A stretch of 38,977 nt of DNA from Catajapyx aquilonaris (Eukaryota), in NCBI GenBank assembly GCA_000934665.2, contig JYFJ02003671.1:1-38977 (forward strand), given 5' to 3'. Under the pieces are notes generated by a model that saw only the letters and a list, made by a program, of their open reading frames with translations, made no database searches and was not told where the DNA came from. Shown here one piece after another: positions 5,235 to 25,032 of this stretch. Position 1 is the first letter of the stretch. Every line of letters starts with the position of its first letter. Position numbers and translations under genes: made by a program.

Positions 5235-5879
5235 TCACATATCGCACTGGAAGGGATGCACCACCTCCGGATGTCCCCTGAGATGCTTCTGCAATGCTGC
5301 TAGCTGTGGAAAACCTTTCTTACACACCCTGCACTGAAACTGTGTGCTGACACTGCCATCCCCAGAATGAATCACCATGTGCTTATGTAAGTTCCCCTTA
5401 AAAGAGAAAGTCCTCTGGCACATGTCACACTGGTAAGGTTTGCTCCGAGAGTGAGTTTGCTCATGATTTCGAAGGTTTTGCTGCCTGGAAAATCCCTTCC
5501 CACACGTTCCACATGTGAACTGTGGCTTGTTACTTGACTGTGGTCCTCCTGAATGCAGCAGGAGGTGCTGCCTCACTCCATGCTTCTTGGCAAATGTCTC
5601 TGGGCAGAAACGGCACTGGTAGAACTTCTTTCCCTCGAAGGTAGTCTCACAAGAGGTCAAATCAGCTGAGGTGAGTCCTGCCATAGAACTGCTGAGAATG
5701 TCTTCACCTTTGTGAACTTTGGAAGTGTCCTCTCGCTCCTCACGGTACTTATCCTTTTCTGGTGGCTGTGACGCAGAGGACACAGGGGGCATCTCCTCCA
5801 GGATGGTGATGCTTCCAGAAGGATCACGGCGCATCTCAACCGAGACAGAATTGGCAGCAAAGGCTGCCACCTGAGTGTC
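5235..5879 (-). CDS. Gene 1 terminal coding exon: four C2H2 zinc fingers
   Basis: Fingers CRFC..HLLLH, CGTC..HEQTH, CDMC..HMVIH and CRVC..HLRGH. Acceptor ttctccttgcag|GAC is phase 0, matching the donor at 13122. An alternative in-frame acceptor at 5928 is phase 2. Stop TGA at 5237-5235. Confidence 0.88.
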   Translation of the reverse strand, partial: DTQVAAFAANSVSVEMRRDPSGSITILEEMPPVSSASQPPEKDKYREEREDTSKVHKGEDILSSSMAGLTSADLTSCETTFEGKKFYQCRFCPETFAKKHGVRQHLLLHSGGPQSSNKPQFTCGTCGKGFSRQQNLRNHEQTHSRSKPYQCDMCQRTFSFKGNLHKHMVIHSGDGSVSTQFQCRVCKKGFPQLAALQKHLRGHPEVVHPFQCDM

Positions 5880-6257
5880 CTGCAAGGAGAATAAGGCAGC
5901 CCAATTATTGCACTCTTTCACTATTTTACTAGGTGCGAGGAGAAATTATTAGTTCATACAGCCTGGAATGGCTGCTTTAGGAACATAAGCAGAGCATAAG
6001 AAACAGTGGAGTCCAACAAGCAACACTGCTCACAGAAATTTGCTTATTTATCTGATTTCCAATAACCAGAAAGTATTAGGTTACTTGTAGCAGGTCAAAG
6101 TAACTGTTTATGCCTCTAGTATGGCCAAAAAAGGAATAACTGATAGCCATCAAAATGACATAGGAGTACCAGTTTGAGGCACACAATCCCCTGGTACAGT
6201 ACTGTACAGTACCGTTCATAAAGAATGGTACCACTCTATATGGACGAAATAATGTTT

Positions 6258-6548
6258 ATCCTGTTCTCAACCCCTGGGTCGCCAGCATGTTTTTATGGGT
6301 CATGAGGAAGTCCAGAAAAAGAGAATCAAAATAAAATTAAAAGGAGAAGAAAAAAACAGCGAAGTAGGAAAATTTTAGGGGGGAAATTCACATCAAAAAT
6401 TATATACCGTAAGTAAGCATTGACCATGGTTGAACATTTTGGTAATTAAAATTTTTATTTAAAACTCGGGATGGGTCATATGAGTCACCAGAGGTCCAGA
6501 AAAGGTTGCCCATAGGGTTTCATTGAAATAAGGTTGGGAATAATGCTG
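6258..6548. mobile_element. degenerate hAT (Charlie/MER5-like) MITE
   Basis: GTTCTCAACCCCTGGGTCG... start and ...AAGGTTGGGAA end, typical of hAT MITE termini. Confidence 0.45.
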
Positions 6549-6613
6549 GATAATCAGGATAAACATTTCCTATACAATGTGACAGTCTATTCTCGGCCAT
6601 GGAATGTTACCAC

Positions 6614-6777
6614 ACAGTAACAAACTAGCAGTTGTTCCATATTTTCGTTGGTTAGTTGGCGCCGGTTGCTGACAATACCTCTTTATATGCTAAAAACCAC
6701 CTTTCAACGCCACATGAAGTAACTGGATCATACTTGAAAAGTGAAATGTCTTCTACTGCCAGTTCATCTGGCATGCC
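6614..6777 (-). pseudogene. hAT-type transposase C-terminal fragment
   Basis: Manual translation PDELAVEDISLFKYDPVTSCGVERWFLAYKEVLS, then after a frameshift NRRQLTNENMEQLLVCYC. Resembles the hAT dimerisation motif TSCxVERSFS...RRxLTxENL. Subterminal (TAGGCGCAAG)x3 repeats lie near 6899-6935. Confidence 0.75.
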
Positions 6778-7086
6778 TACAGCTTCTTAGCCCCCATTGG
6801 TTGAAGCAGGAGGGATGCCTTGAACAGAAAACCCTCAAAAACTCTCAAAAATCCTACAGAACAGCGTCAAAAAAGAAAAAAGAACAGCGTGGTGGGAATA
6901 GGCGCAAGTAGGCGCAAGTAGGCGCAAATAGGCCATTCAGGTTCCAACGTCCAAAATAGGCAATTTTAGGTTCCATAAAACTACGATTTTTGAGGTCCTT
7001 GTGTTATGAAATGGATTAGATATATTTTGGTTCCGGTGTTCTGCCTACAGAATCAAAAGTAGGGAAAACCCTACAAATCTCTTCTC

Positions 7087-7200
7087 ATTATTATCATCAT
7101 CATCATCATCTATCATATTAAACTCCTTGCGGGAGTTGGCCGAGCCCTCTGATTGGTCCGCCGCATATTGTTACCGCCACCTCCCCATTGGCCCGCGTTC
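7087..7200 (-). mobile_element. possible 3' end of a non-LTR retroelement with (GAT)n tail
   Basis: (ATC)n/(ATT)n microsatellite abutting a GC-rich segment, as in RTE-type tails. No TSD found. Confidence 0.35.
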
Positions 7201-7456
7201 TACTTATGAGCAATGCGGTGTAAACAACTCCTCTGTTGGGTTGCCAGGGAAACTGTCCATTCCTTCTCTGTATTGTTGCCCAGTTGGCACTACTGTGAAG
7301 GTGTTTACAGAGTCAGTTCCCTTTATGGAACGACAGACACAGGACAGACATGTTGTCACTTCTCACTAATCAGGCCATTCGAAGACTGCTGGAGGGCTAA
7401 CATTACACCCTCCCCTGGTGATATGGTGTGCCGAATAGGTACCCCAGGCCGCGGGC

Positions 7457-7537
7457 CTAGAAAAGAGCAAGCGAAGCGAGTGGTTTTCTAGGCCTGCACC
7501 CTAGGAAAATGCGAGTGGAGCGAGGGTTTTCCTAGTT
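7457..7537 (+). mobile_element. Helitron-like 3' terminal motifs (tandem pair)
   Basis: Two copies of GAAAA..GCGA(A/G)..GCGAG..GGTTTT(C)CTAG, the second ending CTAG|T. Confidence 0.4.
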
Positions 7538-8380
7538 ATTATATAAACTGCCAACATGTCCCTATTTATGCTGCTCTAGTTCAGATCTTGGAACTTAATG
7601 CAATACCATTTAAATGCTTTTCTACAGCAAGCAACACTGCCATTAAGACATGCCCAGCCACAAACTTTTGATAGCCATTTTTGACCATCCACACTTCACT
7701 AAGAAGAAACCAGCAGCTATTTTTTACTGATCTCCCCCAAAATGAGCAAAAACTGTAGTCCAGGTAATGCTATTGGCAGTATCTCACCAAGGTAAATGTA
7801 TAAATACTTGAAGACCGGCTTTCAAGGAAACATTGGCACTACGACAGATCACTGATATTGATTGCCCAACACCAATGAAGTTCGCCTAGAACGAAAATCA
7901 CCTGCATGTCGATGTTACAAATACAAATTACTGGAGAATGAATCATGTTTTAATTGCACAACTTATATGCTAATGAGCCACATGGAAGAGCAATGTTGGG
8001 GTGAGATATCAAGGGGTGGAACAAGATGAATAGGACAGTATTTACTTAGTGCGCCGGGTAATAGAGTTCGCCCAGGGTGCTAAACGCACCACAAAGTTTG
8101 CCTAGAAGCAGGTGACATAGCCATGGGCAGCAATGACGGCCTCCACACAACACGACATTGTGTTGAATTAGCTCTGGCACTCGGCTGGAGTGATGCTGTC
8201 CCAAACCTCCTGCAGTTTGGCCCTTATTTACATGCTAGGCAAACTTCAATGGTGTTGGGCAAGTAAACGAAACAATGTAAATCAGAAATTAGTAACAGTC
8301 ACAAAGACTGGCTAATCTGGATCATGGTGTACCAGCAGCAGTGTCAATGTTCAATTCTTTAGCAAGAAGGCTTTCAACTA

Positions 8381-8963
8381 CAGGGTGATTCTCCTGAAAC
8401 TGAACCCAAACATTCCTCAATAACTTTTGAATTATTGTATGGTTCTCAATGAAAATTGACATGTACTTACCTTGTATGATGCCAAACAAGGTCCGCCTAG
8501 AAAATATGAGGAAAATGGTCCCCTCCAGCATCCAAATTTTTTTGAATGCGAGTCTGCATATTGGAGTATACATGTGCTAATGTGACATCATAATGGCAGC
8601 AAACTCCTGCCGTATCAGGGCTTGAGGGCTTCAATTGTTATGGGCTTAATCCTGTATATGATGTGCAGCCCTTCATTAAACCCCACAAGAAGAAATCAGG
8701 TCTGGTGGGGCCTCCTCAACCCAAGGCCGCGCAGGTGTACCTGGCTGTCCCGCTTCCCTCTGCATCTGTCTTGTATACGCCAGTATGCAGACTCGCATTC
8801 AAAAATTCTTGGATGATGGAGGGGACAATTTCCAGCATATGCTTTAGGCAGACCTTGTTTGGCATCATACAAGGTAAGTACATGTCAATTTTCATTTAGA
8901 ACTATACAATAATTTAAAAGTTATTGAGGAATGTTTGGGTTCAGTTTCGGGAGAATCACCCTG
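8381..8963. mobile_element. mariner-derived MITE with about 190-bp TIRs and an internal transposase remnant
   Basis: CAGGGTGATTCTCC...GGAGAATCACCCTG with TA TSD. The minus-strand interior reads PPDL/DFFLWGLMKG/YRIKPITIEAL/IRQEFAAI with frameshifts (SPDLxPxDFFLWG motif). Confidence 0.85.
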
Positions 8964-9719
8964 TATACGCAGAATAATAGAGTAGGCTCTCCTAAGCTTT
9001 TGGTATGTTCCATTTTTCCTTCACATGAATTTCTGTAATTTTGTTATTGCAGGATAGGTCTATATTGGATAATTACATATTTATAGGCCTGCCAATTGAA
9101 TGTGTACATGGATCATTAGCCTTAATTGGCACAATGATCACTTCTATCATGTAAAACCGATTCCAAAGCATGAGCAGTAATGGAAGATGCCTATCTCTTT
9201 GCAAATTATTTAAAAAATAAAATCAATGTAGATATCTTTGTACCAAAGGCTATGGCAGACAGAAAACCCCTTCCATTAGACTTCGACAAATATTAACTCA
9301 TGCACTTTTTCCACCAGGCTTTTGTGAAAACTTGTCAAATGATTAGAAAATCCAGTAAGCAAAGCATACATATTAACACCAAAACTTAGTAATTATTTGG
9401 TCAAAAATAAAAAATCATGCAACAATGCCAGAAGACTCAGCACATAACTTTGTACTAGGATTGTGTTCAAAATAGATAGTAACAAATCAGTATCATAAGG
9501 GCATGTTGTATAGCTCCGGTTGAGAACTACCTCATTATTTCCCAATATCCTGAAGCATTTACCATTTCACCATTGAACTGAAGTATGTATCAGTTTGATG
9601 TATTGCTATGCAACCTGTCATGATAACTGAAAAATGGAGTACCAAAGTATGCCATCCCAATGTGCAAGAAAAAGAGTAGCTTTGAGACAGAGACAATGCA
9701 ATGATATTATTCCACTTAC

Positions 9720-9785
9720 CCTCTCATTTCCACTACTGCTCCATCCACATCACCACTGACTTCTTCTACGCTGAACACGGAATTT
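9720..9785 (-). CDS. Gene 1 putative 66-nt cassette exon
   Basis: ttttgcag|AAATTCC...GAGAGG|gtaagt. Of the phases compatible with the flanking splice sites it is open only in phase 2 (NSVFSVEEVSGDVDGAVVEMRG), which fits the donor at 13078 and the acceptor at 5928. Confidence 0.55.
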
Positions 9786-10024
9786 CTGCAAAAGCACATT
9801 GACTCTACTATTGCATATACTACAACTTCTTGCACATTGGTTGGGCCGCACTGTATGTATTTTGTGAATCTATTGTAAAGTAGCTAGTGAATTCTCGCAT
9901 AAGATATCAGTAAACTAATACTGAAGGTCATCTTGGTACCATATAAAAAATGGACCTTAATATGAACAATAGGCTAGTGTGTCCACTTGACCCTTTGACC
10001 CCAAAAAGCATCATATCACTAATT

Positions 10025-10371
10025 TATTTATTTTTTTATTTCTATTACCCTGTGATAACCCGATTGGGGTTTATAGGGGAGTGGATTACCACCATTTTAG
10101 AAATAATTTTACTTCATTCTTCGTGCAGGGACTTTCGGGATATAGAGTGGGGATAGGGATTGTTGGGGAGGGGACACTAGTGCAGGTGCAATGTCCTAGC
10201 CTTTGGGCCATGTGCAGTCCCCCAGGAGGTTAGGTTGCCAGACACCTCCTTGGTGCAGGTCAGAGACCCTCCCGACGCAGGTGAAAGGAAGTTCCCCAGG
10301 CGGGGATTGAACCTGGGGCCTTTCACTCAGCAAGCCGAGACGTTACCATCTCGGCCACCACACCTCCCCCG
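10025..10371 (-). mobile_element. tRNA-derived SINE
   Basis: A-box TGGCCGAGATGG, B-box GGTTCAATCCC, A-rich tail. 14-bp TSD TCATATCACTAATT at 10011-10024 and 10372-10385. Confidence 0.9.
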
Positions 10372-10559
10372 TCATATCACTAATTAGACAAATGTATGAC
10401 TATTTCTCCACAATAAATCTTCATTTGAAATGTTGCACCAACCCCATCAAGGTATTGGTTAGCTGGTCATCCTTATTATTTGCAATATATCACAAACCAC
10501 CACATATCTTTCATTACATGATGTGAAACTGCCAGTCCCCTTGTAATAAACATAAATAC

Positions 10560-11834
10560 CATATTTGGGTCAATATTTGGTAAAGGTACACTATGTTGTC
10601 CCAGTTCAGTAAATAGTAAAACACTTACATATATGCTAGGTTTGAGGTACAGTATTGCACTTATTCACATGTCATAAGACAAGTCAATTAAATAGAAGCA
10701 CTAAATATTTATAAATGAAGTTTTTGTGTCAATATTTGCTAAAGGATTAAATTGAGTATGCTAATGAAAGATTTAATTTTCTAACCATACCTTATGTATT
10801 TCCTGCATTCTCTTACTATTTGTATTAATACTGTGTAATGTCATCACATTTCACCAGAAACTTTCCTAGATAATTTTTTTTTCATTACTGTCACTACCAA
10901 TTAAATTTTTTTGCAAGTGTTAAAACATTACCCTTGTATTATACAGGGTGACTGAAGTCAGGATACATAGGTAATTTAATTCCATAGTTGGCTTCCAGTT
11001 GTGCCAACTCCAAGTGCCAATTGTGTCAACTCAAACTTTACTGACTGTCAATAATCTGCTAGTTGGTCCAACTGGAAACCAACCATTCAATCAAATTACC
11101 GATGTAACTTTCACATTCATAATTTTCCACACTTGCAAGTAAGAGAGCTGTGCCACTAAAATTGTCGTTATTGCAAAAGATGGGCCATTATCATTGTGCA
11201 ATTACTGTTATTCGAGGTTCATAACATGTATTCAAATTGACGAGACTTATTTGAATAAGAAAATTATATTTACATGTAACACTTTATTGATGGGAAGGGA
11301 CTATTTCCAATGCTGCATCATTTCTACAGTGCAGAAAACGAATTGACGTTCTGACGTCATCATTTTGTTCTCATGCAACAATAGGAGTAAACAATGTTCT
11401 TTTTGTTGACACTGTTTACTCATAATTTATTGCTGTGTGACGATGACATCAGACTGTAGTTTCGTTTTCCGCAGTTTATATCAGCAATTTAGAAAATTTT
11501 ATTGTGAAGTGGCAATTTATAACACAGTGCATGATAAACTTAGTTAATACTTGCAAGTGTGTACAGATGGTAATTTTATTCCCACATAGTAAAAGTGTAG
11601 GAAGTATGCTTATCATTTGTCTAATAAAAAGTTTGAATGTGAAAATTATTTAAAAGCAGTTGCTACGGTAATGACAGAAATATTATCATGTAAAATTTAT
11701 GATGAAATTTCGTAACATTACACAGTGCATTAAAAGACATAGTCACAGAATGCAGGAAATAAATTAATATAACAAAAAAACTTTTGTTACCATACCCAAC
11801 CTTTGACCTTTAAGTAACTATTGACCCACATATA
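10560..11834. mobile_element. old degenerate foldback element
   Basis: 10560-10590 and 10790-10900 are reverse-complementary to 11800-11834 and 11660-11765. Confidence 0.5.
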
Positions 11835-12596
11835 CAGGGTTATTCAAAATGATCGCTACACTTTGATGAGGCCATAACTCGGTAAGAAATAACAATACAT
11901 GAAAGGGCTATGCACCAATCGAGAGGTAATATCTTCAAGTTTCATTTTGAATGGTGCACGACCGGTGTTTTGCTCATGCGCCGCAATGGGGACTGGGGAG
12001 CCACCGAGGCAAAATGGCGACGCCCCAGCAGAAGGCCTTCTGCATCCTGCATTTTGCCAGGACAAATTCCGCCACTGTGGTGCAACGACAGTTCTGGACG
12101 AGTTTCAAGAGTGATCCACCACCTCGATCATCCATCTGCAAGTGGTACAAGAAGTTTGAAGAGACAGGATGTGTGTGCTTGATTCGTCGATTTTCGTGGG
12201 CTCCGTACAAAAGCTTCTCTGATGCGGGTGACTGTGTCCTCTGATACCCGTGGACTTTTTTTTTTTGCACACACATCCTGTCTCTTCAAACTTCTTGTAC
12301 CACTTGCAGATGGATGATCGAGGTGGTGGATCACTCTTGAAACGCGTCCAGAACTGTCGTTGCCCCACAGTGGGGGAATTAGTCCTGGCGAACTGCAGAA
12401 GGCCTTCTGCTGGGGCGTCGCCATTTTGCCTCAGTGGCTCCCCAATGCGGCGCATGAGCAAAACACCCGTCGCGTGCCATTCAAAATGAAACTTGAAGAT
12501 ATGACCTCTCGATTGGTGCATAGCCCTTTCGTGTATTGTTATTTCCTACCGAGTTATGGCCTCGTCAAAGTGTAGCGATCATTTTGAATAACCCAG
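11835..12596. mobile_element. palindromic mariner derivative carrying the DUF4817/HTH 5' end in both arms
   Basis: CAGGGTTATTCAAAATGATCG termini, TA flanks, arms of about 340 bp. ATG at 12014 gives MATPQQKAFCILHFARTNSATVVQRQF...WYKKFEETGCV. The mirror copy starts at 12424 on the minus strand. Confidence 0.9.
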
Positions 12597-13121
12597 TACA
12601 TGTTTCTTACTAGTGGGACTTATGGCCCACAGGATAATTACTGGCCTGAAATAAGCCTAAAATGTAGGAGTACAAAATGTTAAGGCACCAAATGGTAATG
12701 GCCTACACAATTGACACACACATTTGCCTTCTCCTAAACACAATCAAACCATAATGTAGAAATTTGCAGGCAGTACAAGCTATGCACATGCAGAGCTTGC
12801 CTAGGGAGCAAGATTGTGATACCTGTTACAGCAAATACACTGCCTGTACTGCCTGCCAACTGCTGCAATGTCGGTGGCCATGACTGTCTTGGAGAAGGAA
12901 AGTGTTTCGCTCTGTCTAGGTCATTCCTGATTAGTCCCTTGGCATTTCTGATCCAGCTACATTTTGGATTTGATTGGGGCCAATGATTACACTGCCTGCT
13001 GGAATTTCCACTAGTACGCAGTACTCTCTATATTACCATCCTCATTTGAATAAGCATTTCTATGACCAAGGCATTACCTCCCTCCCCACAATTTCAACTG
13101 CAAAAAAACTAATGTACTTAC

Positions 13122-13691
13122 GCAGCCAAGTCCCAGTGAGCTAGCGAGATCAGTCGCCCAGTGCAGGTGTGGTGCAGCCCAGGCTCCTCCAACACCTATC
13201 CCCCCAACAGTACCTCCACCCTCAGCTTCCATGCCAGGGGGAGGTGCGCCCAAGGGACGCCCTTGTGCTACGAATGCCTCATAATGAGTTGCCTCCTGCT
13301 GTCCACCAAACTCAGCTGTAAATCTATCAGGAGCTGCAGCTGAAGTGGAAGAAGGAGCTCCTCCTGAAGATGAGGACAGTGTACCACCTGCTCCCCCTCC
13401 ACCACCATCCTGAATCAGATCAAATGGGATCCCATCTATGGGTAGTGCATTGAGGTTCTCTGCACTAATGACAACATCATGATAGTAGGCGCTGTTGTGT
13501 TTGAGCCACCGGAGCGCCTTCTCCACGGTGGCCCTGCGGACCCGAAGGTCCCTCAGGGAGTCTGAATTGCTGCTTCCAGAACTATTACGACGAGATGGTC
13601 TCATCTGTGCAATGTCAGCTGGAGACCGTGGAAGGTTTGATGCCACATACTCGCCTTGAAGATGAGTTCCACCACCTGCACCTGGATATAC
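13122..13691 (-). CDS. Gene 1 coding exon 3: DUF6570-like Helitron-associated domain plus Gly/Ser-rich linker
   Basis: Acceptor attgcag|GTA (phase 0). Reads VYPGAGG...LPRSPADI...DLRVRRATVEKALRWLKHNSAYYHDVVISAENLNALPIDG. Donor TGC|gtaagt (phase 0), with an alternative donor AG|gtaatg at 13078 (phase 2). Confidence 0.85.
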
Positions 13692-14427
13692 CTGCAATAT
13701 GCCCAAAGGCCAAAATCAGATCTGTAACTCCCTTGTAAATGGTGTCATAACAGTCATGTTGGCCTCACTGATGAATAAATCCAGCAGAGATTTAAGAAAT
13801 AATGTGAACTACCTCTGAGGGTCACTTGACAAAGAAAATATTGAACACTGTACTCCCGTTTATCCATGCTAATTAATTCACTGGGGGGGGNGGGGGGGGG
13901 GGAATAATAATAAAACACGCATGACCTGGAAATGGTCCTAGGTACCTTAACTCAGATATGCCGGGAAAAGTTTTTGTTGAATTTTGAACTTTTTTTCTTT
14001 CTATTAGTTCATTTAGTTCCCAAAACACAAAAACTGAGAAAAAGCATTTTCCTGAGTGCGTGTTTGCGAGAAAATGGCTGTTCCCTATAATTATGGGATG
14101 CTAGGAAATAAAAGGGATGATGACAGGCACATGGGCACCTTTCCATTTCAGGGTCGCAACAGTTCGCATCCGACCTATTGTGATTGACCCATTTGGCCGG
14201 TCACAACCCCGGCCGGCGCGGCAGATGACCTGTTTCCCATGGACGACCCTTTTTTCCCTCATTAATTGGTACATGGGCATTGGACCTAATATCAGCAGGT
14301 GCTATTCCAGATACTCGAGAAAGTAACTCTTAGCAAGTAGCTGCTTAGAAAGTAGCAGCTTATGCGATTTTTCCAATAACTGTTGGGGCGATCAAGTTGG
14401 ATCACCCTGTATGTGTGTGTGTTTATA

Positions 14428-14821
14428 CAGGGTGGACCAACTTCAAGTGTCGTTTTATAACGGCTATTAATAGAAGCGCTTTACGATTGACGTAGCAGAG
14501 ACGTGTAAAATGGCCCACTTCGGCGCCATCGAAAATATTAGCTGTGTTTCGTTTGCAGGCTTCCCCCTTGCATTACAGGTCCATGGTCCATCTGGTGCCT
14601 TGGGCGTCACCCATTTCACCCAGGCGCATCGCAGGTCATGTGTGCACCTCCATTTTTCCAGGTCGACCCAGCAGCAGGGTTGATTACATGTGTGCTGCTA
14701 TTGGCATCTAATATTTTCGATGGCGCCGAAGTGGGACATTTTACACGTCGCTGCTACGTCATCGCAAAATCACTGCTATTAATCGCCGTTATAAAACGAC
14801 ACTTGAAGTTGGTCCACCCTG
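14428..14821. mobile_element. mariner-type MITE (family B, internally deleted copy)
   Basis: TIR CAGGGTGGACCAACTTCAAGTGTCGTTTTATAACGGC with TA TSD. Longer copy in opposite orientation at 23572-24126. Confidence 0.9.
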
Positions 14822-15164
14822 TATATATAAACATACATACAGTAAAACTTCTATAAGTCGAAGAAAATGATGAGCTTGGTTGGTCACAATGTAAAATAAT
14901 AGGAAATAAAACTTTACAGGAAGCACTTTTGTTTAGACAATTGCATATTCTGACATGGGGTAGGGGTTATACGGGTACATGAGGGGAAGTCACTAGTTTC
15001 ATTTCTGTGGTTTTTGTCGCTTCTAATTATTTATTTTTCAAAGAACATATTTCCCACGTTGTTCCATAGCTATCTCAAAAGTGTCAAAAATACACATCCA
15101 ACATTGTTCCATCCCAGCATTCAATTTTTGCTTTGAAAATGGTAAGTTTTTGGAGAATCACCTG

Positions 15165-15357
15165 TATACATTACTTATAACACCTAATACAATGTACAAT
15201 AAATGCTAGATGTAAATAGTTGTTATACTGTATCATAGTGATAGCCCCATGGTAATCGCAAGTTTTGTTTTTTGGATCATTTTGCACATTTTTTTTTTTC
15301 GATCTATGGTTTGTTGAATTCACGAATATGATCCCACAGATTCAGAGGGACCTCTGC
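15165..15357 (+). mobile_element. Tigger/pogo-like 3' fragment
   Basis: TTATAACACCTAATACAATGTA...GTAAATAGTTGTTATACTGTAT...TTTCGATC..GTTGAAT..GAGGG resembles, from memory, Tigger4/Zombi-type 3' ends. Confidence 0.5.
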
Positions 15358-16009
15358 ACATCCCACTTTGATGAAAAAGATATGGTGAAGTGACTCATAT
15401 ATGTTTTGGGCATTGTTAGACTCCATTTATGAACACCTGTGCTGTAAATAAAGAGATGAGGCTTTCTGAAGGTAGCGTCATATTGAATAAGTTGATTTCT
15501 TAACTCAGGATTGGTCACTCAATCCTCAAATATTTAAATAAAATATTTAACAGATAATCTCTTACTCTGTAGTTTTCTGAATGCATTCTACCAAGATAGG
15601 GAAGCTGTGGATGCCCATTTAGCTTGAAATTAGATCTTTGATGCAAATGGTGAGTAGCAGGAACAATAAGAAAAATTTAAAAAGTAACTGCAAAAGATCT
15701 AAATCAACCAAGATATGGGGGGCAAGATATTGCTGCCATATTTTCTTATACCAAATTGCCACAGAAATCATTGCAACGTGCAGAACTTTTACCTTTAATG
15801 GTACAAGAGCCCAATTTCTTGAGTCATATCTTGTTTAAGAAAATTAACATTTAATAAAATTGAAGAGCTTGCCCATTGTAATACCCCATTCGAAGGGGTA
15901 TTTATGTTCTCATGCATCTGATTGCAGTATCATTGCTCCCAAGTTACAGTTGGATGACAGAGCAATGAATTCGTAACATTTCATTCCAAAATGGTTTTGT
16001 CCTATTCTA

Positions 16010-16285
16010 CAGGGTGGTCGGTTAATGCCTGGCAATGTCCCTGCAAGTATATACGGTTCCATTGTTTGGTGAAAATGTGGGGCATGTCAACATGGCAATG
16101 CCTGGAAACGCACCGCATACAGAAGGATACGGCAGTGTTTGAATTTCATGATTTGGCCCAAACTATGGAGGCCTCGTGAGCTCTAACCAGGCATCGTAGA
16201 GCAATAGGACCTTCACTTCCTTATACTGGTTTTTCACAAGGAATCTCGCTACCTGAAGCTTGTGCACCATTTACTGACCACCCTG
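16010..16285. mobile_element. mariner-type MITE
   Basis: CAGGGTGGTCGGTTAATG...CATTTACTGACCACCCTG with TA TSD, 22 nt from the exon 2 donor. Confidence 0.8.
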
Positions 16286-16307
16286 TATAAAAGAAGACTT
16301 AACTCAC

Positions 16308-17085
16308 CTTAACTACTGGTACACTCCTGGCTATGAGAAGCTTTTCTGCAGCACTGAGATCTCTGAGCTCAGGTGGTGCTGGAGATGCCTGGGAATCTTG
16401 CAGGAACCTTTCCACTCTACACTTAGGGCACACAAATCCAGGAGCAGCTCCACCACCTTCTAACTTGTGACCCACAGGCCAGGCCTCCTCACACACCACA
16501 CACTGCTGGCACAGTTCAGCTGGGCAACCCTCAGGACTATAACCCCAACCTCCCACTGAAGAGGATTCAGATTCAGAATTATTAGCCCCACCTCCCATTG
16601 CTTTTTTCCTACGTCGTTCTCGCTGTCTGATCCGATTTAAAGATCGGCGGCGCTCCTGTTCTTCTGGTGTTTCCATTCGACGTCGCTCTTGCTGACGAAT
16701 CCGATTCAAGGCACGGCGCCTTTCCTGCTCCTCTGGAGTCTCCTGGCTACGGCGCTTCCTCTGGCGTAAGCGATTGAGTAAGCGGCGCCTCTCCTGCTCT
16801 TCTGGTGTCTCCTGGCGACGCTTCTGTTTCTGGCGGAGGCAGTCCGACATCCGTCTCTGGCGCCGCTCTTCGGCGGTCTCGTCTTTACGGTAGTGGTGGC
16901 GACGGGGGTGGCGCACTGGCACTGTTGACCCTGAGGTCAATGAAGAGGTTGGAGATGGGGTTGAGTCCTTCTTTGCAGCTTCTCCACCTTCAGAAGATCC
17001 TGAAGGTGACCCCTCTCCCGCTATGACCTCTTTCCGGGACCACAGCAGGTTTTGGGGACGCCACGTTGACATTGGCACATTGCTC
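16308..17085 (-). CDS. Gene 1 coding exon 2: 4x23-aa STPR-type repeats, CxxC..CxxC motif, start of the DUF6570-like domain
   Basis: Acceptor gaacag|G (phase 2). Contains ETxEE...RR repeats, CVVCEEAW...CPKC and PAPPELRDLSAAEKLLIARSVPVVK. Donor AAG|gtgagt (phase 0). An alternative start ATG lies at 17072. Confidence 0.88.
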
Positions 17086-18036
17086 CTGTTCAACAACCCG
17101 ATATAAGGTGCTGTTATTGTTCTCAGGCATGATTAAGATACATGTTGATAAGAGGAAAAATAGAAGTCCTCAAGGGGTAGAAATGGAGGAGAAATGTTGA
17201 GGGACCAACCGGTAAAGAGATAGATAACCAGACACATTGGGCTGCCCCTTGACACATGCAGCAACACAAAACACCTTTTTGTAGGGAGATCGCCTGACCA
17301 ATGACCTACATACCTACAGTGGTTGCCTAGGAAGCAGGATATGAAGCATAATGATAATCATTACTGCACAGTGCAATTGTCTTCACATAGACCTACTCAG
17401 TTTTTCATCTACACGTTGTGAAGCCAATACTGTACAGATTACATTTTGTGGTGGGCTTGTGGTATCCTTTTCAGGACAGTGTTATAATCTTTTAAAAGTT
17501 GTCTTTTCTTTTGCTCTGCGTTTGGTGGCATCCATAAAGGCAACTGATCCATGTACTTTATAATTCCTATTTACATGGGAGTTAATAGAATTCTCTACTT
17601 TGGGTGTGCAAGGCACTGCCTAAAACCTCCTTCTGCTTTCAAGGTCTTGAAAATACTGTTTTAACTCATATTTTAACCCTTTACTGATACATGTCATAAT
17701 TATGTACTACGTATATCTCTATTATATGCGAAACTATTGCGGATTTCCCAGAAACAGTAGCCAATTTTGCATTTGCATTGTCATATTCGTGATTAGTACC
17801 TTGAAATCATTCAAAAATTGCTACTTTAATCTCAGAGTCTTGATTATCATTAACATCGCCATTAATACATGCTTTATATTCGTTTCACAGGGCTGGGTGA
17901 TAGTTAGAGAGGCTCTAGGAAAAGAGTCGCCTACTTCTGACATCACGTTGTCTCTGATTGGCTGGAGTAACCCACCCACAAAAATGTCAACATTGAGTTA
18001 AGCCCCGGAACATACACCCTAAGGATAGTAGCCTAC

Positions 18037-18038
<2 letters not shown>

Positions 18039-18071
<33 letters not shown>

Positions 18072-19027
18072 GTTGTAACCCCGTTTCAGGGCAGGGCCCT
18101 CTTGGGGGGACACAACTCTCAGATACAGATCATCACCCAATATAGCAGTACCCTTAAAAATAAATCCTTTTCCCCACATTATCAAAAAAATTAAATAGAC
18201 GGTATGCCACCTCTTTTGGCAGGTTCCCAAACAAAAGGTGGGTCTTGTCGGCTGGAAAAACCCTCAGATCTGACACAAAATTCTTCCTGGGCGTAATAAA
18301 GAAAGGGCAATTGTACAAGACATGATGCAATGAGAAAGTCTCGTGAGAGTTACACCAAGTACAGGGAAGTGTATCATCGAAAACAATTTTCCGGCCGCGT
18401 ATATAATTATATTGAGGGGGATTGGTTTCTGAGGTTGGCCATCAGCCTTGTGATAGGCAGTGGTAAACAAAAGGCCAAATACCAAGGCGGAGATGATTCC
18501 GGGACTAGATCCCGATAATGAACATATCGGGTTGAACGAGTTAGTGCCAGGTGACTAGCACTTAAAATACGTTCCTCATAAACTTGAATGCCCGCACCCA
18601 ATGAGAGTTCCAGTAATTCCAAGTCATCACAGCCCACTTCCGATAACTCTCGGTATACCCTACTATACCAGTTCAGGCTTGGGGATGTAGCCGCCACCTG
18701 GTTTTTGGAACTAAGGTATGCCAGTTTCTGGAGCCGGGATGTAGGAAGGTTGGTCAGCTTTATCAGTTGTTTGCCTATCAATCTCAGGGCTCTTCCAGAA
18801 AGTGGTCTAATGCCTAGTTCCAGCCTTAGAAAATAATTTGCCGTGTTGGATGGGAGCTGGAGAAACCTCTTCAAGAAATAATTTTGAACCTGATCAAATA
18901 TCTGTGAGTGCCTAATTCCCCAGACCTGGGCTCCGTATAGAATTGTGGGAGCAATTTGGGCGTCAAACAGCCTACGTGCTACCTGAACGTCCCGGACTTT
19001 CAGGCGTAGCATTGTATTCCACAGGCA
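18039..19027 (-). mobile_element. 5'-truncated LINE (RTEX/L2-like ORF2 C-terminus)
   Basis: LFDAQIAPTILYGAQVWG...FLKRFLQLP..T.N..LRLELG, then after a frameshift a CCHC motif CTWC...HVLYNC. (TAAA)n tail. 14-bp TSD ATAGTAGCCTACTT at 18025-18038 and 19028-19041. Confidence 0.9.
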
Positions 19028-19211
19028 ATAGTAGCCTACTTCATTCAGTTAAAATCAAGGTGCCGAAATCTGCATACTTCTGTTAGGCTATAGGTGTTTT
19101 AGGGTGTAATTTGAAATAATACGTTGTGGATTGGAAGAAAATGCGATTTTATAGCTCAGCATGAGAATGACAAGTCAGTCGCTAGTCATGTCTACCGTAA
19201 CTCCTTGTAGG

Positions 19212-20479: not shown

Positions 20480-20629
20480 TACAGTACACATCATTTCTTC
20501 CACTTGATCACTAAAAACAGTTAAAATAAAAATATGTAAAAAATTATTTTTAAGAACACGCTTTATATTTCAAAGTGCACTAAAAATCAGTAAATAAATT
20601 TTTCCTGTAATCTTCAGCTTTCTCTTTTA

Positions 20630-21792
20630 TAATTGAACCTCGGAATCGGAAAACAGGCTAAGTGGACTTCAAAATGACTTGGCACTTATGCACTTGTTGC
20701 TCTGAGCCTCGCTGTACGCCAAACGGAGCGTCGCAGGCGCACCAAACTCGGGTGGTAGGTGTGCCTGGCGAATCCATGACGATACAAGGTGTCAGAAATC
20801 CGATACGAGTAACGAGTGACGAATGGGAGCGGTGTCTTTGACCCCCCACCCTCTGGACACCCCCGTAAAGTTAACCTGTTTTCCGACTCCCATGCGAGTT
20901 CGAGGCCACGTTGACCCCTCTGCAGGTCACAGTGATTGTCACACCTGGGTAAAAAAAATTTGTATTTTTCTTGCGGCGAATGCGTACCTATCCCCGGTAT
21001 CACGATACCGATAGGACAAACGAGTCAAATGCGGCACTGGTTTATCTGATCCCCCTCCTGGGATGTCGCCTATAGTGCAGTAGATTATACTTGGTGTAGG
21101 TATGTGTACACAACATGCACGCCTATGTACTGTACACAACCGGTTGGCGACACCATTAGCAACACCATTAGCAACATGCAGCAGCACATGTTGTACATTG
21201 TAGCCTACGCAATTATGTGATATCTGATGCGGCTTTGGTATAACAAGCAGTTCCACACGACATATATTGATGTTTCCAGTTACTTTTATTGACCATATTC
21301 CTTTATCTGTTTTAAGATGTATCTACACTAAAAAGAAGGCATTGGAATCGGAAATAAAAAAGGGATGGGGGTAAGAAAAACCAGTGCCGCATTTGACTCG
21401 TTTGTGCTATCGGTATCGTGATACCGGGGATAGGTACGCATTCGCCGCAAGAAAAATACCAAATTTTTTTTACCCAGGTGCGACAATCACTGTGACCTGC
21501 AGAGGGGTCAACGTGGCCTCGAACTCGCATGGGAGTCGGAAAACAGGTTAACTTTACGGGGGTGTCCAGAGGGTGGGGGGTCAAAGACACCGCTCCCATT
21601 CGTCACTCGTTACTCGTATCGGATTCCTGACACCTTGTATCGTCATGGATTCGCCAGGCGCACCTACCACCCGAGTTTGGTGCGCCTGCGACGCTCCGTT
21701 TGGCGTACAGCAAGGCTCAGAGCAACAAGTGCATAAGTGCCAAGTCATTTTGATGTCCACTTAGCCTGTTTTCCGATTCCGAGGTTCAATTA
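20630..21792. mobile_element. foldback element with about 414-bp near-identical inverted arms
   Basis: 20630-21043 is reverse-complementary to 21378-21792. Mirror ORFs in the track confirm this. Confidence 0.9.
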
Positions 21793-21793
21793 A

Positions 21794-22275
21794 GGGGGCG
21801 CATTAGTAAAAATACGGTAGGCGCATTTTTGAGGGAATTTTATTTTTTGTGGCGAAACGCACCGTTAATCGGAAAAATCACGACGACCGTGCCCTGCGCA
21901 AAGGTTTGGCCTTTACTATGGTACCATACTCGATATGATTGCATTAAAATTGTGGACATATGGGCGCAGAAGCGTTCCCGACTTTGTCGCGTTCCTGCCG
22001 CCATGTTATTCAAATGGGCTTTTCGGGAACGCCATTTTCCTTTCACTTCAACTCGATGAAAAGGTCACTTCTAGGCCGAAAATGGTAAAATGACGACGAA
22101 GGTGCCCTGCGCCAGATCATGTCCTATTTTTTGGTGTAATTTTTGTGTCCATTGCAGAAGCGTAGACATGTCGAATCCCCATATGCTGTCCATGCATACG
22201 CGAGTTTGTTTACGTGGTCGCCAAGGGCTCGCATTGTTACCGATTGTTACCGTATTTTTTTGCTAATGCGCCCCC
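21794..22275. mobile_element. TTAA-flanked MITE (Kolobok-like)
   Basis: TTAA|GGGGGCGCATTAGTAAAAATACGGTA...TACCGTATTTTTTGCTAATGCGCCCCC|TTAA. G-starting termini argue against piggyBac. Confidence 0.75.
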
Positions 22276-23097
22276 TTAACTAAACAGAAGAATATTATTC
22301 CTTTTCTTCTGTGGTGTTCAGCTATTTCAGTATTGTTTTGCTTTACTTATATTCCTGATATAAAATTTGGAGTCCCGGAAATTGCATGTGGCTATGCTGT
22401 TATGCTACGCAATTGGCATTTTTGTAATCCTCCCATCAAAATCAATAAAGGAACATCAAAATATTGAGATCAACACAAAAATGTGCAAATTTCGTTACAC
22501 TGTGTTACCATTTCCATATCCTGCTCCGTTGACAACCACTGCAGGTGTGTGGTTCATCTGTCAGGCAATCTCCCTACAAAATGGTGTTATGTGTATTGGT
22601 GACAACCCTAATCTCACTTCCAAAAATTCATTATGTATTTGGGCCTAAGTGACTACGGATATGCTAAAATGCAACAGAGTGGTGCAATGTGATACTGTGC
22701 AATCATAGACTTCCCCCCTAAGTCAGCAAATGGGCAGGTTACAACCTTCAGGCTATAGAGCAATTCCACGATAATGTCAACCTGGCAGGGGTTAGAAAAA
22801 ATTTATTGTAGGAGAAAATATCTTGCTCTGCGAGTCAATTTGTTATATGAAAACACTGTTCTGGCAATGGACCCTGCATAAGAAAGTGTCACAACCTCAT
22901 ATAATTCACAGGAATTTCACATAATGTAATAAACCCCTTCCTGTAAGGCTGTTTTAATTATGTAACATCCGTAACGCGTACAAAAACCCTACTGTCCCTC
23001 TTGTGTGCATATGTAGGTGATCGTAGCATAGAACATACGGAAGTACAGATTCTTATGGTTTCTCTGGCCATACCCATTACATCATCACTTGCATGTA

Positions 23098-23185
23098 CTA
23101 TGGGCGCCAAAAGAATTGACCGGCGTTGATGGGTATATAGCGCCATATACCCATCAACTCCGGTCAATTCTTTTGGCGCCCATAG
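23098..23185. mobile_element. 88-bp near-perfect hairpin MITE
   Basis: TA|CTATGGGCGCCAAAAGAATTGACCGG...CCGGTCAATTCTTTTGGCGCCCATAG|TA. Confidence 0.8.
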
Positions 23186-23571
23186 TACTAGTGTGGAAGC
23201 AGCCATCTTTCCCCAAATGTGCGTGCGACATCCCAGTGCAACTTCGTTTTTTTCACATAGGTTTCCCCCTCCGACCCCTGTGACTTTCGATAGGCAAGGA
23301 GAGGCTTATCAGTAGTTAGGTAGGGTGCCGCATCGCTTGAGTTTGCCGCGGTTTTGTCCCGTTTTTTTAGTGCTCTACCTACTAGAGCAATCCATCTTAT
23401 AAGCTAGTGGGGGAGTGGGGACATCCACATTCTCATGATCCGTTCTCAATGAATAGTAATAATTTTCGTCACAGTCAGGGGTGTCGCTCCATGCACTCAC
23501 GGTAAGAAGAGGCCGGTGAGACTCTGGAGATCCATGCAATAAGGGGGCTAGTTTCCAGACCTGTATATATA

Positions 23572-24126
23572 CAGGGTGGACCAACTTCAAGTGTCGTTTT
23601 ATAACGGCGATTAATAGCAGTGATTTTGCGATGACGTAGCAGCGACGTGTAAAATGCCCCACTTCGGCGCCATCGAAAATATTAGCTGCCAATAGCAGCA
23701 CACATGTAATCAACCCTGCTGCTGGGTTGACCTGGAAAAAAGGAGGTGCACATATGACCTGTGATGCGCCTGGGTGAAATGGGTGACGCCCAAGGCACCA
23801 GATGGACCTGTAATGCAAGGGGGAAGCCTGCAGTCTTGCTGATCGGATGCTGGTTTGGGCATTGCTTGGTTGGTGGTTAGGGGGCACCGCACGTGCCCTG
23901 TTTTACACCGCGTGTTGCGCGGGCGAGGCAGCCTTCTTTAAGGACTGCCGGATTGGCATTGGTGCCGCATGTGGTTGCACAGGGTTCATTACATGTGGGC
24001 TGCTATTGGCAGCTAATATTTTCGATGGCGCCAAAGTGGGCCATTTTACATGTTGCTGCTATGTCAATTGTAAAGCGCTTCTATTAATAGCGGTTATAAA
24101 ACGACACTTGAAGTTGGTCCACCCTG
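23572..24126. mobile_element. mariner-type MITE (family B, long copy)
   Basis: Same TIRs as 14428-14821, opposite orientation, TA TSD. Confidence 0.9.
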
Positions 24127-25003
24127 TATATACAACAACTCCTCGGCCGTGGCGTGCGATTATAATGTCCGTAACGCTGGAATTGCTCTACAGTTTCTCT
24201 CTACCTCTTATGGAAATAACAGCACAAAGAAGAAAATGCTTATTGTGCACAAGAAAACGTCAGTGTGGTTCCTTCCTCTACGTAATTTATTATGCCATAA
24301 GGCCTCAAGAGAGAAGAGTGGTCATGTTAACTGGTGAAACCAGCTACAAAGTCAGGGCAGCGTAGCTAGTAATCTGTCCAAATAATTACAGTGGTATCAC
24401 CTCCATCAATAACTGAACAATTTAGCTTATTACCTTCATGCAACTGGGTCAACTTCAGCATCACCAATGTCTCCTCAAGAATCACACTCTCTGACACAGT
24501 AGTACACCCCTGCACTTCTACCAAACACACTCTCTGAGCTCACAGAGACATGTCTGACATGTGACAACTCTGGTCCAGCGAAGTCTGCCCATACTTCCTC
24601 CTATGTACCATCCAACTATTTCCTTCCTTGACAATTGGTACAATTCTTGATGTTGTCTAAACACAACTGCACTTGTTCCCTTGTCTTTGACCCAGTTGCA
24701 CTTCTCAACTTGAAGCAGCCAGCACCCTTACACACAGAGCTGATAAACACCATATTTTAATGTTGCCAATTGTCCTATGACACCAACTAATCTCATCTCT
24801 CTGCAGATGTTACGTTTCATACAATGCACCAACCCAACCATTGTTGCAAGCCTAGTCCTACACCAACCATATCCAAGCTGCAATGCTTTCTTCGCAAATG
24901 GTCAGCAGCGAGCCCTGATCCTGCCGCATTCGGTCCTGCATCTCCTTCAATCCGTCCCTCTACCCCATAACAATAAAGTCGGCCTGAATAATAAGGGACA
25001 TAC

Positions 25004-25032
25004 CAGTAGCAAACGCTGGGCAGACATTCCAT
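25004..25032 (-). CDS. Gene 1 putative first coding exon (MECLPSVCYW)
   Basis: ATG at 25032. Donor TG|gtatgt is phase 2 and joins in frame to the acceptor at 17085. Lies in a CpG-rich segment downstream of a promoter-like region. Confidence 0.55.

What the first reader, a model, noticed from the sequence alone, without database searches (positions are those of the whole stretch)
5235..25032. Candidate domesticated Helitron-derived gene: STPR repeats, C4 motif and DUF6570-like domain fused to four C2H2 zinc fingers
Seen in the sequence: four exons (29+778+570+645 nt) splice through GT-AG introns into one uninterrupted 673-aa frame spanning 20 kb. Established knowledge: the sequence CxxCxExW..CxxC..PPELxDL..ExLIAR..PV..VY..GG..LPR..DxRVRR..V..AL.WLK.N..Y.D..I....L..LP.DG is the DUF6570-type region that precedes the Rep/PIF1 helicase in Helitron/Helentron proteins, which often carry ETxE repeats at the N-terminus. 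Here no HUH Rep or helicase follows, and C2H2 fingers occupy that position. The exons are intact while the introns have collected many TE insertions. Inference: this is a host transcription factor built from a Helitron N-terminal module. I do not know this architecture as a described family.
Basis: partly seen in the sequence, partly recalled or inferred. Interest (0 to 1): 0.88.

Follow-up and report, generated by a model that had tools for sequence, protein, structure and literature searches.

The report
Helentron-derived DNA-binding module beside zinc fingers
Two intact exons encode the front, DNA-binding part of a rolling-circle transposon protein with its enzyme parts missing, and they may be spliced to a nearby zinc-finger exon to form a new regulator gene, but that link and any host function are not shown.

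Summary
The sequence features are real. On the minus strand, 16308-17085 and 13122-13691 encode four 23-residue STPR-like repeats, a CxxC...CxxC motif and a DUF6570 domain. Pfam gives E 4.5e-12 for the part in exon 3. A canonical GT-AG intron splits the domain, and alignment to Helentron proteins runs colinear across the junction, so these two exons belong together. No Rep or helicase remnant lies anywhere in the 39-kb window. An exon with four intact C2H2 fingers (5235-5879) lies 7.2 kb downstream on the same strand. It is frame-compatible and has a strong acceptor.

Three things are not shown. The 29-nt first exon is one of four equally good chance candidates. The exon 3 to exon 4 join rests only on splice consensus and frame. 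Domestication could not be tested: no genome is held, no RNA run was listed, and no close relative was found by one exhaustive search of 1.84 billion representatives, three word-index protein searches or two metagenome scans. The finger array ends inside a fifth finger, so it is itself a fragment.

My best reading, at 0.4, is a transposon-derived, enzyme-less DNA-binding gene. The main rival, at 0.35, is a young truncated or non-autonomous Helentron copy with an unrelated or captured finger fragment. Interest is moderate.

The parts
25004..25032 (-). Candidate only.
   Evidence: The sequence is as described. It is 1 of 4 equally scoring ATG..GT phase-2 candidates between 17.1 and 28.5 kb; the others start at 22631, 20893 and 19288. 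No independent support.
16308..17085 (-). Exon 2 (778 nt): N-terminal Ser/Gly-rich leader, four STPR-like repeats, C4 motif, first part of DUF6570. Alternative start is the in-frame ATG at 17070-17072.
   Evidence: Lies in the ORF 16299-17132. The donor AAG|GTGAGT is at the 99.9th percentile of 2184 GT sites by a hand-made matrix. phmmer gave 53 hits at E <= 1e-3.
16605..16880 (-). Four tandem 23-residue STPR-like repeats (ETAEE.., then 3 x ETPEEQERRR..).
   Evidence: Tandem Repeats Finder reports a 69-nt period. The units are listed. Glu1, Thr2 and Arg9 are present in 4 of 4 units, against the criteria in PMC4856987. The AF2 model has helices 71-90, 94-113, 117-136 and 140-163 at pLDDT 97-98. 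The Pfam STPRs model gives no hit.
16419..16511 (-). CxxC-x23-CxxC motif (CQQCVVCEEAW...CPKC), a putative zinc-binding ribbon.
   Evidence: Coordinates. The cysteine pairs align with those of P0024, P0036 and P0045. Zinc binding is inferred.
16308..16376 (-). DUF6570, N-terminal part (PPELRDLSAAEKLLIARSVPVVK).
   Evidence: Pfam DUF6570 profile positions 17-40, E 0.24. Aligned block.
13692..16307 (-). Intron 2 (2616 nt, GTGAGT...TTGCAG), which splits DUF6570. AT-rich and CpG-poor, with a nested repeat at 14407-14842.
   Evidence: Boundaries. The repeat is (I7, I2, D1, D2). Composition is. blastp to P0036 (2e-22), P0045 (5e-19) and P0024 (6e-17) runs colinear across the junction.
13122..13691 (-). 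Exon 3 (570 nt): C-terminal part of DUF6570 (13449-13691), then a Gly/Ala/Ser-rich linker (13122-13448).
   Evidence: Pfam DUF6570 E 4.5e-12, residues 18-81 on profile 70-133 of 133. The donor TGC|GTAAGT is at the 87.5th percentile. The ORF stops 16 codons past this donor.
5880..13121 (-). Proposed intron 3 (7242 nt), with mariner-type HTH fragments at 11817-12614 and an inverted repeat at 8379-8965. An alternative in-frame splice pair uses a donor after 13078 (GAG|GTAATG) and an acceptor before 5928.
   Evidence: No Pfam domain appears in the 79 minus-strand ORFs of 28-64 aa in this interval, apart from one weak DUF7083 hit at E 0.0096.
5235..5879 (-). Exon 4 (645 nt including TGA): 86-residue leader and four C2H2 fingers (5553-5621, 5451-5519, 5367-5435, 5271-5339). 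It ends 'FQCDM' (5238-5252), the start of a fifth finger, with TGA where the second Cys is expected.
   Evidence: Pfam zf-C2H2 E 1.4e-20, 4 stretches. The acceptor CTCCTTGCAG|G is at the 99.7th percentile of 2261 AG sites. No further finger pattern lies downstream in the window.

Best explanation
The locus holds the non-catalytic N-terminal module of a Helentron (HLE2-type Helitron-like element) transposase. The module has four STPR-like helical repeats, a CxxC...CxxC motif and a DUF6570 domain. It is kept as two intact exons with a canonical intron, and the Rep nuclease and PIF1 helicase parts are absent.

I think the most likely working unit is a transcript that starts at or upstream of exon 2, joins exon 2 to exon 3, and then splices from the exon 3 donor to the strong acceptor of the four-finger C2H2 exon. 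That would give a protein of about 660-670 aa with no catalytic domain.

Such a protein would bind DNA in two ways. The STPR helices would lie in the major groove of AT-rich DNA, as in Bombyx FMBP-1, and the C2H2 fingers would add sequence reading. It would then act as a transcriptional regulator, or as a repressor or competitor at Helentron-derived sequences.

Shown: the domains, the exon 2-3 join, and the loss of Rep/Hel from the window. Inferred: the exon 3-4 join, the start site, expression, DNA binding, and any host function.
For: - Domains: DUF6570 at E 4.5e-12 and four zf-C2H2 at E 1.4e-20.
- Colinear alignment of the joined exons 2-3 with DUF6570 proteins: P0036 at 2e-22 over query 76-359, P0045 at 5e-19 over 76-390, and P0024 at 6e-17. 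P0045 also carries Helitron_like_N. P0005 carries STPRs, DUF6570, PIF1 and Exo_endo_phos.
- STPR criteria are met: four units of exactly 23 residues, Glu1/Thr2/Arg9 in 4 of 4 units, and helices that start at residue 3 of each unit at pLDDT 97-98.
- Old protein-level constraint on the repeats: units 2-4 have pS 0.75-0.88 against pN 0.10-0.19.
- No Rep/Hel remnant in the window.
- The exon 2 donor and the exon 4 acceptor are in the top 0.3% of sites. The exon 3 donor is GTAAGT, and the phases match.
- All 216 minus-strand ORFs of 28-64 aa between the finger exon and the upstream transporter gene were scanned, and none shows a usual zinc-finger-gene N-terminal domain. The Helentron-derived exons are therefore the only recognisable upstream coding exons for the finger exon.
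- Under an assumed neutral model, exons 2-4 stay free of stops and frameshifts with P 0.028 at 1% divergence and 0.0007 at 2%. The ORFs are therefore either very young or under selection.
Against: - No close relative was found. Of 53 hits from reading 1.84 billion representatives with exon 2, only 1 has E <= 1e-10 and none has E <= 1e-30.
- Word-index searches with exon 3 found nothing.
- The 45 hits to exon 4 are generic finger proteins at 38% identity or less. None aligns with the first 440 residues of the joined protein.
- The exon 3 donor reaches only the 87.5th percentile. A stronger donor lies 44 nt further on (GAG|GTAATG, after 13078) and pairs in frame with a weaker acceptor at 5928.
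- Frame compatibility alone is a 1 in 3 chance.
- The finger array stops inside a fifth finger. That is what a partial duplicate or a captured fragment looks like.
- The middle of DUF6570 is shortened by about 9 residues and diverged, and Pfam sees only profile positions 70-133 at significance.
- Copy number in the genome is unknown.
- The nested repeat in intron 2 is 98% like another copy in the window, so the locus need not be old.
Confidence: 0.4

Rival explanations
1. Exons 2-3 are part of a recently immobilised, truncated or non-autonomous Helentron copy that has lost its Rep/Hel part. The zinc-finger exon is either an unrelated gene fragment that happens to lie downstream, or a host fragment captured by the element. 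There is no host function, and the frames are open only because the copy is young.
For: - The module is the usual N-terminus of Helentron proteins.
- The finger array is cut inside a finger, as captured or partially duplicated fragments are.
- The nested repeat in intron 2 is 98% like another copy, which is compatible with a young locus.
- Exon 2 keeps CpG o/e 0.7 in a CpG-depleted background.
- No orthologue was found in any search.
- The neutral model allows survival only at about 1% divergence or less, which a young copy would satisfy.
Against: - No close Helentron relative of this copy exists among 1.84 billion representatives. The best DUF6570-bearing hits are 25-32% identical. An active family in a sampled lineage would be expected to leave closer relatives.
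- The intron inside DUF6570 is 2.6 kb, AT-rich and CpG-poor, with o/e 0.24-0.35. That is long and decayed-looking for a compact transposon gene.
- Pfam sees only the C-terminal half of DUF6570 at significance here (47 bits), against 109-124 bits for the full domain in P0045 and P0036.
Confidence: 0.35
2. There are two separate expressed genes. One is a short STPR-C4-DUF6570 protein that ends at the stop 16 codons past the proposed exon 3 donor. The other is an independent small zinc-finger protein that starts at an internal Met of the finger exon or from an unrecognised upstream exon.
For: - The exon 3 ORF ends at 13074-13076 if it is not spliced.
- Exon 4 has in-frame Met codons at residues 16 and 30 of its translation.
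- The exon 3 donor is only moderately scored.
Against: - The nearest AATAAA or ATTAAA after the exon 3 stop is about 1.5 kb downstream, at 11580.
- The finger ORF begins at a very strong acceptor with a pyrimidine tract (99.7th percentile), so it looks like an internal or terminal exon rather than a first exon.
- No other domain-bearing exon is seen upstream of it.
Confidence: 0.1
3. Both pieces are dead relics, a decayed transposon fragment and a decayed finger fragment. Their open frames and splice-like boundaries are chance.
For: No expression or conservation evidence of any kind was obtained.
Against: - The two longest ORFs among the 43 of 80 aa or more overlapping 5000-25300 are the exon 2 and exon 4 ORFs (277 and 236 aa). 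The exon 3 ORF (213 aa) ties for third with one other ORF.
- All four fingers keep their Cys and His ligands.
- About 284 homology-supported codons show no stop or frameshift.
- Seven in-frame CGA codons remain unmutated in a CpG-depleted genome.
- The neutral model gives P < 0.001 at 2% divergence.
Confidence: 0.05

Closest known systems
N-terminal region of Helentron / HLE2 transposases (DUF6570 upstream of Rep and PIF1 helicase; HELIANO paper PMC11417382, passages read)
   Same: Same order of ETPE-type 23-residue repeats, then a CxxC...CxxC motif, then DUF6570. The alignment is colinear with P0045 (DUF6570 + Helitron_like_N) and P0036. P0005 has STPRs + DUF6570 + PIF1 + Exo_endo_phos. The paper names DUF6570 as a marker of the HLE2 clade, in the same ORF as RepHel.
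   Different: No Rep (Helitron_like_N) and no PIF1 helicase anywhere in the window. The middle of DUF6570 is shortened. The domain is split by a 2.6-kb intron. Identity to the nearest relatives is only 25-32%.
STPR DNA-binding domain of Bombyx FMBP-1 (PDB 5d23; PMC4856987) and STPR proteins such as ZNF821
   Same: Four tandem units of exactly 23 residues. They are basic, carry Glu1, Thr2 and Arg9, and are predicted as a 2-3-residue linker plus a helix of about 20 residues per unit. 26 of the 53 phmmer relatives carry Pfam STPRs.
   Different: Pfam STPRs itself does not hit the window protein. The direct match to FMBP-1 is E 0.22. Foldseek found no PDB match. DNA binding is untested. That ZNF821 carries STPR is known to me from the listing and from recall, not from a test here.
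STPRs + C2H2 proteins in the public collection (P0007, 522 aa; P0023, 727 aa; unnamed)
   Same: STPR repeats lie N-terminal to C2H2 fingers in one protein. P0007 matches both exon 2 and exon 4 of the window.
   Different: They have no C4 motif and no DUF6570 between repeats and fingers. Identity is 30-43% and confined to the repeats and the generic finger scaffold, so they are not orthologues.
Host-transposase fusion genes made by splicing a transposase DNA-binding domain to host exons (Cosby et al. 2021, recalled, not read here)
   Same: The proposed origin is the same: a transposon's non-catalytic DNA-binding part is joined by splicing to host exons, giving a regulator without transposition activity.
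   Different: The examples I recall come from cut-and-paste DNA transposons. Here the donor would be a rolling-circle Helitron-like element, and the host part is a C2H2 array rather than a KRAB or similar effector. Fusion, expression and selection are not shown here.

Membership tests
Pfam DUF6570 (PF20209) | Match to the family model above the gathering score | tested here: met
   Exon 3 scores 47.0 bits against a cutoff of 24.3, E 4.5e-12, over profile positions 70-133 of 133. The exon 2 tail adds profile positions 17-40 at E 0.24. The domain is therefore present but split by an intron and shortened in the middle.
Autonomous Helentron / HLE2 element | Rep (HUH, Helitron_like_N) and PIF1-type helicase in the same coding unit | tested here: not met
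   There was no hit in 150 of the 155 ORFs of 65 aa or more, in 216 of 216 minus-strand ORFs of 28-64 aa between 5957 and 28558, or by tblastn with Helentron proteins (relaxed run, best E 0.6).
Autonomous Helentron / HLE2 element | DUF6570 N-terminal to RepHel (clade marker per PMC11417382) | tested here: met
Helitron-like element copy (any, including non-autonomous) | Element termini, and multiple dispersed copies in the genome | not testable with these tools
   No genome is held for this window.
STPR domain (Pfam STPRs PF21107; FMBP-1 type) | Match to the Pfam STPRs model | tested here: not met
   No STPRs row appeared for exon 2 at E <= 1, or for the repeat region alone at E <= 10. HMMER's filters may have dropped a biased sequence.
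STPR domain (Pfam STPRs PF21107; FMBP-1 type) | Tandem units of strictly 23 residues, basic, with Glu1, Thr/Ser2 and Arg9, each forming a 2-residue linker plus a 21-residue helix (PMC4856987, passages) | tested here: met
   There are four units at residues 69-160 of the exon 2 translation, and all have E1, T2 and R9. Model helices are 71-90, 94-113, 117-136 and 140-163 at pLDDT 97-98. The phmmer best hit P0001 (E 9.2e-13) carries STPRs at E 9.5e-78.
STPR domain (Pfam STPRs PF21107; FMBP-1 type) | Binding along the major groove of AT-rich DNA | not testable with these tools
   This needs a binding assay. It is inferred only from likeness to BmSTPR.
C2H2 zinc-finger proteins | C-x2-C-x12-H-x3-5-H units matching zf-C2H2 | tested here: met
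   Four units, zf-C2H2 E 1.4e-20. A fifth is cut after 'FQCDM'.
Domesticated transposon gene / host-transposase fusion | Single copy, syntenic orthologues, and purifying selection between species | not testable with these tools
   No genome is held. No orthologue was found. Selection is seen only between the internal repeats, and that may date from the transposon phase.
Domesticated transposon gene / host-transposase fusion | A transcript that joins the transposon-derived exons to the host exon | not testable with these tools
   No RNA run could be listed, so read laying could not be used.

The most novel reading that the evidence does not exclude
A lineage-specific transcription factor was born when the non-catalytic DNA-binding head of a Helentron transposase (STPR repeats, zinc ribbon, DUF6570) was spliced onto a four-finger C2H2 exon and kept by selection after the Rep and helicase parts were lost. 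This would be a protein-coding domestication of a rolling-circle (Helitron-like) element, and the first assigned cellular role for DUF6570. My phrase searches found no such case.
Probability: 0.3. Interest if true: 0.75.

Novelty: new variant of a known kind. Interest (0 to 1): 0.45.

Why it matters
Helitron-like elements are known for capturing host gene fragments and for spreading regulatory sites. Protein-coding co-option of their own proteins is hardly documented. My phrase searches found only cis-regulatory 'domesticated Helitron' uses, and no paper linking DUF6570 or STPR-bearing Helitron proteins to host genes.

If this locus is a spliced, selected gene, it would extend the 'transposase capture' route of transcription-factor birth to rolling-circle elements. 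It would also give a handle on what the DUF6570 region does.

If instead it is a young truncated Helentron next to a finger fragment, it is an ordinary transposon relic. The data here cannot yet separate the two.

Tried and rejected
- Own-genome search: no genome is held.
- RNA evidence: no RNA holder was listed for exon 2.
- Word-index homologue search with exon 3, whole and residues 1-95, longer proteins only: no hit.
- The listing of cluster members, for names of the relatives: switched off.
- ESM Atlas: busy for exon 4, then closed to new sequences for exon 3.
- The search of earlier findings by place, by sequence and by words: nothing.
- PDB by sequence: only E 0.22-0.75 rows, including FMBP-1 5d23 at 0.22.
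- AF2 of relative P0036, to read the DUF6570 fold: that part had pLDDT below 50, so no fold search was made on it.
- Foldseek of the exon 2 model against PDB: no match at E <= 0.001.
- Idea that the exon 3 tail still aligns with the segment just before Rep in P0045 or P0036: rejected. 184 of 500 and 241 of 500 shuffles reach the observed score.
- Search for a further finger exon downstream of the stop: none.
- Search for KRAB, SCAN, BTB or ZAD-type exons for a separate finger gene: none in 216 ORFs.
- Metagenome contig scans with exon 3 and with exon 2: pattern matches (596 and 142 stretches), but no relative by tblastn.
- Poly(A) signal positions and CpG o/e were looked at and do not decide between the readings.

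Full report
**What is in the sequence.** The window is eukaryotic, and no whole genome is held for it. Background CpG o/e is 0.06-0.45, which points to a methylated genome. Among the 43 ORFs of 80 aa or more overlapping 5000-25300, the two longest are minus-strand 16299-17132 (277 aa) and 5235-5945 (236 aa). Minus-strand 13074-13715 (213 aa) ties for third with one other ORF, 18407-19048. That is 673 codons plus TGA, with no internal stop.

**Domains.** Pfam finds DUF6570 in exon 3 (E 4.5e-12, 47 bits against a cutoff of 24.3, profile positions 70-133 of 133). It finds four C2H2 fingers in exon 4 (zf-C2H2, E 1.4e-20). The last 24 residues of exon 2 match DUF6570 profile positions 17-40 at E 0.24. 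This is not significant alone, but it is in the right order.

Pfam's STPRs model does not hit exon 2 at E <= 1, nor the repeat region alone at E <= 10. The region is nevertheless four tandem units of exactly 23 residues (ETAEE.., then three times ETPEEQERRR..). All four carry Glu1, Thr2 and Arg9. These are the features the BmSTPR structure paper gives for STPR repeats (PMC4856987, passages read).

An AlphaFold2 model of exon 2, built with a 28-row alignment, puts helices at 71-90, 94-113, 117-136 and 140-163 with pLDDT 97-98. Each helix starts at residue 3 of its unit, as in BmSTPR. The direct match to FMBP-1 in the PDB is only E 0.22, and Foldseek found nothing. I therefore call the repeats STPR-like. 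They meet the published definition but not the Pfam model.

**Relatives.** An exhaustive phmmer search of 1.84 billion representatives with exon 2 gave 53 hits at E <= 1e-3. Only 1 has E <= 1e-10, and none has E <= 1e-30. Pfam on all 53 (20 at E <= 1e-3, 33 at E <= 1e-4) gave:
- STPRs in 26.
- DUF6570 in 5 (P0005, P0017, P0024, P0036, P0045).
- zf-C2H2 in 2 (P0007, P0023), both with STPRs and without DUF6570.
- No protein combining DUF6570 with zf-C2H2.

P0005 has STPRs + DUF6570 + PIF1 + Exo_endo_phos, and P0045 has DUF6570 + Helitron_like_N. These are Helentron-type transposases. The HELIANO paper names DUF6570 as a marker of the HLE2 (Helentron) clade, lying in the same ORF as RepHel (PMC11417382, passages).

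**Exons 2 and 3 belong together.** Inside a script, the joined protein aligns colinearly with three of these relatives:
- P0036: 2e-22, query 76-359.
- P0045: 5e-19, query 76-390.
- P0024: 6e-17.

Each alignment runs straight across the exon 2/3 junction at residues 269/270. Together with the GTGAGT...TTGCAG boundaries, this makes the exon 2-3 join well supported. The middle of the domain is about 9 residues shorter and more diverged than in the relatives.

**No catalytic part.** Three tests found no Rep or helicase:
- tblastn of all 53 relatives hits only exon 2, exon 3 and, through the fingers of P0007, exon 4.
- A relaxed tblastn with the Rep/Hel-side parts of four relatives gives only scattered hits, with best E 0.6.
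- Pfam on 150 of the 155 stop-to-stop ORFs of 65 aa or more finds no Helitron_like_N or PIF1.

**What is weak.**
- Exon 1 is arbitrary. Four ATG..GT phase-2 candidates with donor scores of 6 or more lie between 17.1 and 28.5 kb, and exon 2 has an in-frame ATG at 17070-17072.
- The exon 3 to exon 4 join rests on a GTAAGT donor, a very good acceptor and matching phase. On a hand-made matrix built from recalled consensus frequencies, which is rough, the donor is at the 87.5th percentile and the acceptor at the 99.7th.
- A stronger donor 44 nt further on (after 13078) pairs in frame with a weaker acceptor at 5928.
- No RNA run could be listed.
- The finger exon's relatives are generic. There were 45 hits among 559 candidates, all at 38% identity or less, none with DUF6570 and none aligning with the first 440 residues of the joined protein.

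In favour of the join, all 216 minus-strand ORFs of 28-64 aa between the finger exon and the upstream transporter gene were scanned. None shows KRAB, SCAN, BTB, ZAD or any other domain. The Helentron-derived exons are thus the only recognisable upstream coding exons.

Against a tidy picture, the protein ends 'FQCDM' followed by TGA. This is the start of a fifth finger, with the stop where its second Cys should be, and no finger remnant lies downstream. The finger array is therefore itself a fragment of a longer array.

**Selection or youth.** The STPR units 2-4 differ at 75-88% of synonymous sites but at only 10-19% of non-synonymous sites. The repeats are therefore old and were kept at the protein level, but this may date from the transposon phase.

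A neutral simulation used assumed values: CpG transitions at 10 times the base rate, and indels at 10% of substitutions. It leaves exons 2-4 free of stops and frameshifts with P 0.028 at 1% divergence and 0.0007 at 2%. The frames are therefore either very young or under selection.

I could not date the locus. The nested repeat in intron 2 is 98% like another copy in the window, which allows a young age. On the other side, intron 2 is 2.6 kb, AT-rich and CpG-poor, and no close Helentron relative exists in the collection. Those two points fit a long residence better.

**Verdict.**
- Shown: a Helentron-type N-terminal module (STPR-like repeats, C4, DUF6570) survives as two intact, canonically spliced exons without Rep or helicase, 7.2 kb upstream of an intact four-finger exon on the same strand and in a compatible frame.
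- Not shown: the first exon, the fusion transcript, single-copy status, conservation and function.

| Reading | Confidence |
|---|---|
| Transposon-derived, enzyme-less DNA-binding gene that includes the finger exon | 0.40 |
| Young truncated or non-autonomous Helentron copy with an unrelated or captured finger fragment | 0.35 |
| Two separate genes | 0.10 |
| Dead relics | 0.05 |

**Novelty.** The phrase searches turned up no protein-coding domestication of a Helitron-like element and no DUF6570 + C2H2 architecture. The library lacks most subscription journals, and the HELIANO supplements were not opened. Host-transposase fusion as a route to new transcription factors is known (recalled, not read here). 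If real, this would be a new variant of a known kind.

Noticed in passing
window 28574-32879, minus strand: These are exons of an MFS/SLC22-like transporter gene on the same strand, upstream of the finding. Pfam gives MFS_1 and Sugar_tr hits at 28574-28789, 30084-30683 and 30745-31005, each below or near the family cutoff for a single exon.
   Followed up: partly
window 11817-12614: Two inverted copies (arms 91-94% complementary) of a mariner-type element fragment lie inside the proposed intron 3. They encode DUF4817/HTH_48 helix-turn-helix pieces.
   Followed up: partly
window 20630-21792: An inverted repeat has 340-nt arms that are 98% complementary and 483 nt apart. CpG o/e is 0.9-1.3 here in an otherwise CpG-depleted region. 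It looks like a young foldback or MITE-like insertion in the proposed intron 1.
   Followed up: no
window 14407-14842 and 23562-24135: Copies of one repeat family, 88-98% alike and in both orientations, lie in the proposed introns 2 and 1.
   Followed up: no
window 37240-37311, minus strand: ARAGORN calls a tRNA-Ser (GCT). It may be a real tRNA gene or the head of a tRNA-derived SINE.
   Followed up: no
window 18410-19048, minus strand: A 213-aa open frame in the proposed intron 1 has no Pfam hit at E <= 0.01. By eye it resembles the C-terminal part of a non-LTR retrotransposon ORF, but this is unverified.
   Followed up: no
proteins P0005 and P0017 (unnamed representatives): STPRs and DUF6570 occur in the same Helentron-type proteins. 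The HELIANO paper says STPRs are almost exclusive to HLE1 and DUF6570 to HLE2. The ETPE-repeat head may be commoner in HLE2 than that survey suggests.
   Followed up: partly
window 4083-4403, plus strand: A weak Ferric_reduct match (E 0.0014, 19.1 bits against a cutoff of 28) lies in a 107-aa ORF downstream of the finger exon. It is probably chance, or an exon of a neighbouring gene.
   Followed up: no
window 13891 and 19315: There are two single-base N positions in the assembly, both inside proposed introns.
   Followed up: no
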